DNA of 64,000 nucleotides from NCBI RefSeq assembly GCF_045037415.1, contig NZ_CP173438.1; one strand, given 5' to 3'. The position numbers and the translations under genes are program-made. The notes below the pieces were generated by a model. The model saw nothing but the letters and a program-made list of their open reading frames with translations. It was not told the DNA's origin and ran no database searches. This stretch comes from Escherichia coli (GTDB lineage: Bacteria > Pseudomonadota > Gammaproteobacteria > Enterobacterales > Enterobacteriaceae). Below, piece by piece: positions 2 to 298 of this stretch; within the stretch, counting starts at the first letter, position 1, and each line of letters begins with the position of its first letter.

Positions 2-298
2 GAATTTTATGATCCAGAAATAGTCTTCTTTGCAGACAAACTGGACGCTTACACAGATCTGCCAGAGTTTCGCATGATCGCTCCCGATGGCACTACGTTT
101 GTTACTCGTTTCTCCAGTGCCGAACTAAATTATGTGACACGCTGGATCCTTTATAACGGCGAGCAACAGGTAGCCGCCTTTGCATTACCTGCAACCTGTC
201 GGCCTGAGGGGTATCTTGCCGCGCAACGTAATGGCACGCTGATTCAGGTTGCACCGCAGCAAACACGCACTTTTACAGTCACCACAGGAATTGAATAA
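2..298 (+). CDS. 3' end (about 98 codons) of an unidentified gene whose start lies upstream of the window
   Basis: Frame is open from position 2 to the stop at 296-298 (ORF track 74..298 is the part after the first in-frame ATG); followed by an intrinsic terminator; no family recognised. Confidence 0.4.
   Translation, partial: EFYDPEIVFFADKLDAYTDLPEFRMIAPDGTTFVTRFSSAELNYVTRWILYNGEQQVAAFALPATCRPEGYLAAQRNGTLIQVAPQQTRTFTVTTGIE

What the first reader, a model, noticed from the sequence alone, without database searches (positions are those of the whole stretch)
2..298. Unidentified gene 3' end at the left edge of the island
An open frame enters the window and ends at 298 with a clean intrinsic terminator just before the IS nest. 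It is the last intact coding sequence of whatever lies further into the island and may belong to a larger cargo operon.
Basis: seen in the sequence. Interest (0 to 1): 0.2.

Follow-up and report, generated by a model that had tools for sequence, protein, structure and literature searches.

The report
End of the deoxyribose-use gene deoX
The open frame at the window's left edge is the last 98 codons of deoX, the final gene of the already described deoxyribose-utilisation operon on an E. coli genomic island, so the finding is real but ordinary.

Summary
Frame 2 is open from the window edge to TAA at 296-298, and a GC-rich hairpin (319-347) with a run of seven T follows. The window is E. coli chromosome. 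In genomes identical here, the frame runs 717 bases further left to an ATG and encodes a 337-aa protein annotated 'aldose 1-epimerase family protein' (WP_000107487.1, Pfam DUF4432). It is the last gene of a cluster made of a divergent DeoR-type regulator, a PfkB kinase, an MFS permease and this protein. Salmonella enterica has the same four genes between ilvN and uhpA, where the literature names them deoQKPX, the 2-deoxy-D-ribose utilisation genes. The gene is therefore deoX. The E. coli island copy still carries a piece of ilvN on one side. On the other side it carries the ilvN-uhpA spacer and a frameshifted uhpA start (window 299-432), so the 'clean terminator' came along with the module. 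An IS3 remnant and ISEc23 with ISEc45 nested in it follow. The predicted structure has a galactose-mutarotase-like fold. The likely role is to speed interconversion of deoxyribose ring and anomer forms for the kinase; this is inferred, and I found no biochemical test of it. About 30% of complete E. coli genomes carry the gene. Verdict: already known, low interest.

The parts
2..298 (+). 3' part of deoX: the last 98 codons and the TAA stop of a 337-aa DUF4432 protein with a galactose-mutarotase-like fold. It contains the invariant LPATCRPEG motif, including the invariant Glu308.
   Evidence: Translation. 100% identical to WP_000107487.1 genes. Pfam DUF4432 scores 56.8 bits for the full protein and 23.8 bits for the fragment alone. 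Invariant columns. pN 0.07 and pS 0.75 against Salmonella.
319..354 (+). Intrinsic-terminator-like hairpin (319-347) and T run (348-354), 21 nt after the deoX stop. It is homologous to the hairpin just downstream of ilvN in E. coli genomes that lack the operon.
   Evidence: Scan. Folds. Alignments to native E. coli and to Salmonella.
299..370 (+). Spacer homologous to the ilvN-uhpA intergenic region, carried along with the deoQKPX module.
   Evidence: Homology to the native E. coli locus starts at the stop codon. 88.1% identity to native E. coli and 77.5% to Salmonella over 299-432.
371..432 (+). Remnant of the 5' end of uhpA. The ATG is kept, but one base is missing relative to native uhpA, giving an early stop. 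The remnant is cut off at about 432.
   Evidence: Alignments with E. coli and Salmonella uhpA starts. Identity figures.
443..519 (-). Short remnant of an IS3-family transposase gene that ends the uhpA fragment. This is context, not part of the operon.
   Evidence: The minus-strand translation reads ...ELQCLLGKKTMEVEILKEAVEYTT. 83-91% DNA similarity to annotated IS3-family transposase genes.
539..4517 (-). ISEc23 (IS66 family) with 8-bp target duplications CAAAAACT at 531-538 and 4518-4525. It is interrupted by ISEc45 (IS110 family) at 759-2205. This is the 'IS nest' that bounds the finding.
   Evidence: Comparison with the uninterrupted Nissle 1917 and AR_0086 loci. Annotation. Pfam on the 377-aa ORF.

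Best explanation
Window 2-298 is the 3' end of deoX. deoX is the last gene of the deoK-deoP-deoX operon, which with its divergent repressor gene deoQ allows growth on 2-deoxy-D-ribose. The operon sits on the leuX-associated genomic island of this E. coli. Shown here: the gene's identity, its synteny, its orthology to the Salmonella locus, purifying selection, a mutarotase-like fold, and a conserved hairpin after the stop. Inferred: DeoP imports deoxyribose. DeoX, a mutarotase-fold enzyme, speeds ring opening and closing so that the pyranose and anomeric forms convert faster to the furanose form. DeoK needs that form to phosphorylate the 5-hydroxyl. Chromosomal DeoC then cleaves deoxyribose 5-phosphate. 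Transcription of deoKPX ends at the hairpin at 319-354. That hairpin is the one that follows ilvN in E. coli without the operon, and it came along when the module was captured from an ilvN-deoQKPX-uhpA locus. My confidence is about 0.95 in the identity and about 0.5 in the biochemical role of DeoX.
For: Identity: 100% DNA match to E. coli chromosomes, where the frame is a 337-aa 'aldose 1-epimerase family protein'. Operon: a DeoR-family gene (divergent), a ribokinase-like PfkB gene, a fucP-like MFS gene and this gene. There is an 11-nt gap and a GGAG before the deoX ATG. Orthology: Salmonella enterica has ivbL-ilvB-ilvN-(DeoR<)-PfkB-MFS-DUF4432-uhpABCT. Amino-acid identities to the island copy are DeoQ 83.5%, DeoK 96.1%, DeoP 95.9% and DeoX 83.4%. 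The literature names the Salmonella genes deoQKPX (PMC10926698, citing Christensen 2003), gives DeoK as STM3793 (PMC13432705), and describes the deoK operon on E. coli islands (PMC5382810, citing Bernier-Febreau 2004). Captured flanks: an ilvN fragment lies beside deoQ, and the spacer plus a uhpA start lie after deoX. Function: the AlphaFold model (pLDDT 83, pTM 0.86) best matches 3TY1, a 'putative aldose 1-epimerase', with TM 0.73 and E 2.6e-13; galactose mutarotases follow. Invariant His93, His111, Glu113, His183, His212, Arg286 and Glu308 across 43 homologues. The trio PfkB kinase + MFS + DUF4432 recurs in Yersinia, Bacillus and Pasteurella, and in Pasteurella it lies next to a DeoC aldolase and a DeoR regulator. 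Selection: pN 0.07 against a saturated pS of 0.75. From my own knowledge: Christensen et al. 2003 reported that deoP and deoX are both needed for optimal use of deoxyribose. I could not read that paper here.
Against: I found no biochemical assay of DeoX or of any DUF4432 protein in the searchable literature. There is no sequence-level link to galactose mutarotases: Pfam Aldose_epim is not hit even at E = 10, PDB searches with the sequence or a profile find nothing, and hhalign against E. coli GalM is meaningless. The equivalence of His93/His183/Glu308 with the GalM catalytic His/His/Glu is therefore unproven. The model has a weak stretch at about residues 81-120 (pLDDT 52-66) that includes several of the invariant residues. 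Terminator function is not measured, and the scan alone is not above chance. The window itself does not show the 5' part of the gene.
Confidence: 0.9

Rival explanations
1. The gene is deoX, but DeoX is not a mutarotase or pyranase. The mutarotase-like beta-sandwich could act as a sugar-binding or other catalytic module on deoxyribose or a related sugar. It might be a different isomerase, or a partner of the permease or the kinase.
For: There is no sequence-level match to the aldose 1-epimerase family. The same fold occurs as a non-catalytic or differently catalytic domain in lyases, alpha-galactosidases, phosphorylases and YidC, which also appear among the fold matches. The family is still filed as a domain of unknown function.
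Against: The best fold matches are free-standing mutarotase-type proteins of the same size. The invariant His/His/Glu residues lie at positions collinear with the GalM catalytic residues (plus my own knowledge of GalM). The operon context needs exactly such an activity and lacks an RbsD-type pyranase.
Confidence: 0.35
2. The frame is a decaying remnant. Next to an IS nest on a mosaic island, the operon is no longer functional in this strain.
For: The neighbourhood is heavily degraded: ilvN and uhpA fragments, an IS3 remnant, ISEc23 with ISEc45 inside it, and a truncated PTS IIC gene.
Against: All four deo genes are intact in the two genomes with the identical arrangement and in AR_0086. The ISEc23 insertion lies 240 nt downstream of the stop and beyond the terminator. 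Between the two E. coli alleles, dN/dS is 0.14.
Confidence: 0.04
3. It is a second galactose/glucose mutarotase (a GalM paralogue) serving hexose metabolism, as the database name 'aldose 1-epimerase family protein' suggests.
For: The RefSeq product name and the mutarotase-like fold.
Against: Only about 10-14% identity to solved mutarotases and no Aldose_epim Pfam hit. The gene is constantly linked to a deoxyribokinase-type PfkB kinase and an MFS permease, and in Pasteurella to deoC.
Confidence: 0.03

Closest known systems
DeoX of the Salmonella enterica deoQKPX 2-deoxy-D-ribose utilisation locus. DeoK is STM3793; DeoX is the gene between deoP and uhpA.
   Same: Same length (337 aa), 83.4% amino-acid identity over the full length, and the same gene order and orientation (deoQ divergent, then deoK-deoP-deoX). 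The ilvN and uhpA neighbours are the same; in E. coli they survive as fragments.
   Different: The E. coli copy is not at ilvN-uhpA but on a leuX-associated island, between IS remnants. DNA identity is only 75% and synonymous sites are saturated. The spacer after deoX lacks the roughly 81-bp extra segment seen in Salmonella and is closer to native E. coli sequence.
KPN_04629 of Klebsiella pneumoniae (PDB 3TY1), a structural-genomics 'putative aldose 1-epimerase'.
   Same: It is the best structural match to the DeoX model (TM 0.73, E 2.6e-13). It is a free-standing protein with the mutarotase-like fold.
   Different: 14% identity, 384 aa against 337 aa, and not detectable by sequence or profile search. 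No function is given for it in the PDB entry title returned here.
Galactose mutarotase GalM (aldose 1-epimerase, EC 5.1.3.3; E. coli, Lactococcus lactis, Bacillus subtilis).
   Same: Same overall fold and similar size. DeoX has invariant His93, His183 and Glu308. These positions are roughly collinear with the GalM catalytic residues, His104/His175/Glu309 in E. coli (own knowledge).
   Different: No detectable sequence relationship. The context is a pentose (deoxyribose) operon. The equivalence of the catalytic residues was not tested.
RbsD, the D-ribose pyranase of the rbs operon.
   Same: It is the proposed functional analogue: an accessory enzyme that converts the transported sugar's ring form into the furanose needed by a PfkB 5-kinase (own knowledge, inference).
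   Different: RbsD has an unrelated fold and family. The deo cluster has no RbsD homologue among its four genes.

Membership tests
DeoX orthologue group (last gene of deoQKPX) | Full-length similarity to the Salmonella gene located between deoP and uhpA | tested here: met
   83.4% amino-acid identity, 337 aa against 337 aa with no length difference. The Salmonella hit has E 2.2e-196, and its locus shows the position.
DeoX orthologue group (last gene of deoQKPX) | Synteny: a divergent DeoR-family regulator, then PfkB kinase, MFS permease and DeoX on one strand | tested here: met
   L001 10921-15298 and L008 4921-9298. NCBIfam and Pfam assignments. The same order occurs in Salmonella.
DeoX orthologue group (last gene of deoQKPX) | Ancestral flanks ilvN and uhpA | tested here: met
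   An ilvN fragment ends 1 nt from the deoQ stop, as in Salmonella. The spacer and the uhpA start follow deoX.
DeoX orthologue group (last gene of deoQKPX) | The operon confers growth on 2-deoxy-D-ribose, and deoX is needed for optimal growth | not testable with these tools
   This is a phenotype. It was reported for Salmonella and E. coli in papers I could not open. PMC5382810 and PMC10926698 summarise them.
Pfam DUF4432 (PF14486) | Score above the Pfam gathering threshold (32.5 bits) | tested here: met
   The full-length protein scores 56.8 bits, E 2e-15. The 98-aa fragment in the window scores 23.8 bits, below the threshold on its own.
Aldose 1-epimerase / galactose mutarotase (Pfam Aldose_epim, EC 5.1.3.3) | Sequence match to the family model or to solved members | tested here: not met
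   No Aldose_epim hit at E <= 10. No PDB hit with the sequence or a profile. hhalign against E. coli GalM gives probability 0.85%.
Aldose 1-epimerase / galactose mutarotase (Pfam Aldose_epim, EC 5.1.3.3) | Galactose-mutarotase-like beta-sandwich fold | tested here: met
   Model pTM 0.86. Foldseek matches to 3TY1, B. subtilis GalM, Gal10, L. lactis GalM and human GalM with probability 1.00 and TM 0.48-0.73.
Aldose 1-epimerase / galactose mutarotase (Pfam Aldose_epim, EC 5.1.3.3) | Catalytic His/His/Glu in the sugar pocket | tested here: inconclusive
   Invariant His93, His183 and Glu308 exist. No residue-level structural alignment was available, and part of the region has low model confidence.
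Aldose 1-epimerase / galactose mutarotase (Pfam Aldose_epim, EC 5.1.3.3) | Mutarotase activity on a sugar | not testable with these tools
   This needs an enzyme assay. I found no published assay for DUF4432 proteins.
Rho-independent (intrinsic) terminator | G+C-rich hairpin directly followed by a T run, downstream of a stop codon | tested here: met
   319-347, 12 pairs of which 6 are G-C, then TTTTTTT. -20.7 kcal/mol, z -3.1. Conserved in native E. coli and Salmonella with one compensatory pair, read from the aligned arms.
Rho-independent (intrinsic) terminator | Transcripts end at the T run | not testable with these tools
   This needs Term-seq or 3' RACE.

The most novel reading that the evidence does not exclude
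DeoX and its DUF4432 relatives could be a distinct, biochemically uncharacterised class of pentose ring-form converters. They would act as deoxyribose pyranase/mutarotase, doing for DeoK what RbsD does for ribokinase, but built on a mutarotase-like fold with no detectable sequence link to GalM. A second, smaller point: the E. coli module may not come from Salmonella enterica. It may come from an unsampled Escherichia-side lineage that carried deoQKPX at ilvN-uhpA. Its ilvN and uhpA-side flanks are 85-88% identical to native E. coli but 76-78% to Salmonella, and synonymous sites against Salmonella are saturated.
Probability: 0.45. Interest if true: 0.3.

Novelty: already known. Interest (0 to 1): 0.08.

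Why it matters
It matters little beyond correct annotation. The frame is the end of a known accessory metabolic operon. That operon lets many extraintestinal and some intestinal E. coli use deoxyribose, and it has been linked in the literature to competitiveness in the host. The finding marks where intact cargo ends and the IS-scrambled part of the leuX island begins. Two small open points remain. The enzymatic activity of DeoX (DUF4432) has apparently never been measured. The often repeated origin 'from Salmonella enterica' fits poorly with the flank and synonymous-site data obtained here.

Tried and rejected
1. Sequence search of the PDB with the protein and with a 43-sequence profile at E up to 10 gave no hits.
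2. NCBIfam gave no family for DeoX.
3. Pfam at E up to 10 gave only DUF4432 and no Aldose_epim.
4. hhalign of the DeoX alignment against E. coli GalM, meant to map catalytic residues, gave probability 0.85% and was unusable.
5. An Rfam scan of 1-900 on both strands at E up to 1 found nothing.
6. The promoter scan of 1-1000 found none.
7. The primary papers (Tourneux 2000, Christensen 2003, Bernier-Febreau 2004, Martinez-Jehanne 2012) are not held. Searches for 'deoX' mostly returned unrelated uses of the string.
8. I considered and rejected the minus-strand ORFs at 102-266 and 244-426 as genes. They overlap a frame under strong purifying selection, or the terminator and uhpA remnant, and nothing is annotated there in any matching genome.
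9. I did not count how many genomes carry ISEc23 at this site. In one search, 80% coverage of the 600-base query can be reached without the IS part, so the figure of 1185 does not measure that.
10. The protein search already shows nothing between 84% (Salmonella) and 97% (E. coli) identity.

Full report
**Observation.** Reading window 2-298 in frame gives 98 codons without a stop, ending in TAA at 296-298. The other five frames over the same stretch each contain 2-6 stops. A terminator-like site follows 21 nt after the stop. It has a 12-pair stem (6 G-C pairs) at 319-347 with a 5-nt loop, then TTTTTTT. The stretch 310-360 folds at -20.7 kcal/mol, z = -3.1 against dinucleotide shuffles. The scan by itself is not above chance, with 1 site against 0.9 +/- 0.9 expected per kb, so the case for the terminator rests on its position and conservation (see 'What follows the stop codon'). 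The 'IS nest' is real. ISEc23 (IS66 family) occupies 539-4517 and is flanked by 8-bp duplications CAAAAACT. ISEc45 (IS110 family, 1447 bp) is inserted in its transposase gene at 759-2205.

**What the gene is.** Window 1-600 is 100% identical to many E. coli chromosomes. In AR_0086 the frame is the end of a 1014-base gene for a 337-aa 'aldose 1-epimerase family protein', WP_000107487.1. Only two of 5426 complete genomes, IPCEC48 and IPCEC42, share the exact arrangement of this gene followed by ISEc23 carrying ISEc45. In them the same intact gene lies upstream. The start ATG is preceded by GGAG and lies 11 nt after the stop of the preceding gene.

The preceding genes are a fucP-like MFS permease and a ribokinase-like PfkB kinase. 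Upstream of these, on the opposite strand, is a regulator whose best NCBIfam match is DeoR, at 230 bits just below the 244-bit cut-off.

**Orthology to deoQKPX.** A protein search found 1088 homologues, all carrying Pfam DUF4432. The nearest outside E. coli are from Salmonella enterica at 84% identity. The Salmonella locus reads ivbL-ilvB-ilvN-(DeoR-type, opposite strand)-PfkB-MFS-DUF4432-uhpA-uhpB-uhpC-uhpT. The literature calls these four genes the 2-deoxy-D-ribose utilisation regulon deoQKPX (PMC10926698, citing Christensen et al. 2003) and gives DeoK as STM3793 (PMC13432705). Amino-acid identities between the island copy and Salmonella are DeoQ 83.5%, DeoK 96.1%, DeoP 95.9% and DeoX 83.4%. 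The E. coli 'deoK operon' on genomic islands is described in PMC5382810, citing Bernier-Febreau et al. 2004. The finding is therefore the 3' end of deoX. The gene's 3' end is present in 1622 of 5426 complete E. coli genomes.

**What follows the stop codon.** One E. coli without the operon matched window 296-355 at the end of ilvN. Alignment shows that, starting at the stop codon, the window is homologous to the native ilvN-uhpA spacer. That includes the hairpin and the first 60 or so bases of uhpA, which in the window lacks one base and soon runs into a stop. On the other side of the cluster, a 241-base ilvN fragment ends 1 nt from the deoQ stop, exactly as intact ilvN does in Salmonella. The whole module was thus lifted from an ilvN-deoQKPX-uhpA locus. 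The 'clean terminator' is the hairpin that follows ilvN in E. coli without the operon; I presume from knowledge of that operon, without testing it here, that it is the ilvBN terminator. The hairpin is kept in native E. coli, in the Nissle allele and in Salmonella. Comparing the aligned arms by eye, a G-C pair is replaced in Salmonella by A-U. The uhpA remnant ends at about 432 against an IS3-family transposase remnant at about 443-519. ISEc23 follows.

**What DeoX probably does.** The full protein passes the Pfam threshold for DUF4432 (56.8 against 32.5 bits). The 98-aa fragment alone does not (23.8 bits). No other Pfam or NCBIfam family is hit, and nothing in the PDB is found by sequence or profile. 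An AlphaFold model built on 43 homologues is usable (pLDDT 83, pTM 0.86), with a weak stretch around residues 81-120. Foldseek against the PDB ranks 3TY1 first, a structural-genomics 'putative aldose 1-epimerase' from Klebsiella (TM 0.73, E 2.6e-13). Galactose mutarotases from B. subtilis, yeast Gal10, L. lactis and human follow.

Across homologues down to 59% identity, His93, His111, Glu113, His183, His212, Arg286 and Glu308 are invariant. Glu308 lies in the LPATCRPEG motif inside the window fragment. These residues are roughly collinear with the catalytic His/His/Glu of GalM (my knowledge of GalM). I could not obtain a residue-level alignment, since hhalign against E. coli GalM was meaningless, so this equivalence remains an inference.

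Gene context supports a role in deoxyribose use. The trio of PfkB kinase, MFS permease and DUF4432 protein recurs in Yersinia, in a Bacillus and in Pasteurella testudinis. In Pasteurella it sits beside a DeoC aldolase and a DeoR-type regulator. Selection is strongly purifying, with pN 0.07 against pS 0.75 for the 98 codons.

Deoxyribose in solution is mostly pyranose, the kinase must act on the 5-hydroxyl of the furanose form, and the cluster has no RbsD-type pyranase (own knowledge). The most likely mechanism is therefore that DeoX catalyses ring opening and closing, converting anomers and ring forms to feed DeoK. I put this at about 0.5. I found no published assay on any DUF4432 protein. From memory, Christensen et al. 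2003 found deoX necessary for optimal growth on deoxyribose and saw no database match for it at the time; I could not open the paper.

**Rivals.** DeoX could use the same fold for another purpose; non-mutarotase proteins with this fold also appear among the matches. It could be a decaying remnant, but all four genes are intact, the IS insertion lies 240 nt beyond the stop, and dN/dS between the two E. coli alleles is 0.14. It could be a hexose mutarotase as the database name implies, but there is no sequence support for that, and the context argues against it.

**Comparison and novelty.** This is a member of the known DeoX/deoQKPX group, and every testable defining feature is met. It should not be filed as a GalM-family aldose 1-epimerase on sequence grounds, because that test was not met. 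It does share the fold and may work like one. Nothing about the gene, its operon or its island location is new.

**Side observation on origin.** The island genes are only 75-82% identical in DNA to S. enterica, and synonymous sites are saturated. The captured ilvN fragment is 85.1% identical to native E. coli ilvN and 76.3% to Salmonella ilvN. The downstream spacer with the uhpA start is 88.1% identical to native E. coli and 77.5% to Salmonella. The spacer also lacks the roughly 81-bp extra segment of Salmonella. No protein between 84% and 97% identity exists in the 5.8-billion-protein collection. This fits an old capture from an unsampled lineage on the Escherichia side better than a transfer from S. 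enterica itself, which is how the origin is summarised in PMC5382810. The segments are short and include pseudogenes, so this is a lead and not a result.

Noticed in passing
window 299-432; L001 10679-10919: The deoQKPX module carries truncated ilvN and uhpA flanks. These flanks are closer to native E. coli (85.1% and 88.1%) than to Salmonella (76.3% and 77.5%). Synonymous sites of deoX against Salmonella are saturated (pS 0.75). This fits poorly with a direct transfer from Salmonella enterica, the origin given in the literature.
   Followed up: partly
window 539-4517, with 759-2205 nested: ISEc23 has 8-bp duplications CAAAAACT and carries ISEc45 (IS110 family, 1447 bp) inside its transposase gene. 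The same ISEc23-with-ISEc45 composite, 99.7-100% identical, occurs on several ~77-kb plasmids and other chromosomes. Either the composite moves as a unit, or ISEc45 repeatedly targets this one site. The element's right end (TGACAAAGGTCATAAGAG) resembles the target sequence (TGCCAAAGAACATAAAG).
   Followed up: partly
window 443-519 (-): There is a short remnant of an IS3-family transposase gene (translation ...ELQCLLGKKTMEVEILKEAVEYTT) between the uhpA fragment and ISEc23. Nissle 1917 shares it, so it predates the ISEc23 insertion.
   Followed up: partly
window 5206-6105 (-): A PTS ascorbate-type EIIC gene lacks its N-terminal part (Pfam EIIC-GAT positions 123-394 of 394). In Nissle 1917 the intact IIC, IIB and IIA genes and a LacI-type regulator follow deoX. 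This locus is likely the vpe locus mentioned with the deoK operon in PMC5382810. Here IIB, IIA and the regulator are gone.
   Followed up: partly
window 15745-15829 (-): tRNA-Leu(CAA), presumably leuX, is the only tRNA in the window. An integrase fragment lies next to it in the related locus. The island therefore spans window 1 to about 15.7 kb and continues left of the window.
   Followed up: partly
L001 1530-3917 (AR_0086, about 11-13 kb left of the window start): In a related strain the same island carries blaCTX-M-14 with ISEcp1 a few kb upstream of the deo cluster. I did not check whether the source of this window has it.
   Followed up: no
protein P0009 (Salmonella Infantis, 524 aa): This is a predicted DeoX-UhpA fusion protein (DUF4432 + Response_reg + GerE). 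It presumably arose by loss of the deoX stop, and it confirms that the two genes are adjacent and co-oriented in Salmonella.
   Followed up: no
L004 7060-7140 (Salmonella deoX-uhpA spacer): Salmonella has an extra segment of about 81 bp, rich in GCCGGATG/CCTGATAAGCG-type repeats (REP-like), right after the conserved hairpin. It is absent from the E. coli island copy and from native E. coli.
   Followed up: no
L006 (E. coli ST361 strain, match ends at window 302): A third context for deoX: homology stops just after the stop codon, so the terminator, spacer and uhpA fragment are missing. An IS100 (IS21-family) element follows about 650 bp downstream.
   Followed up: no
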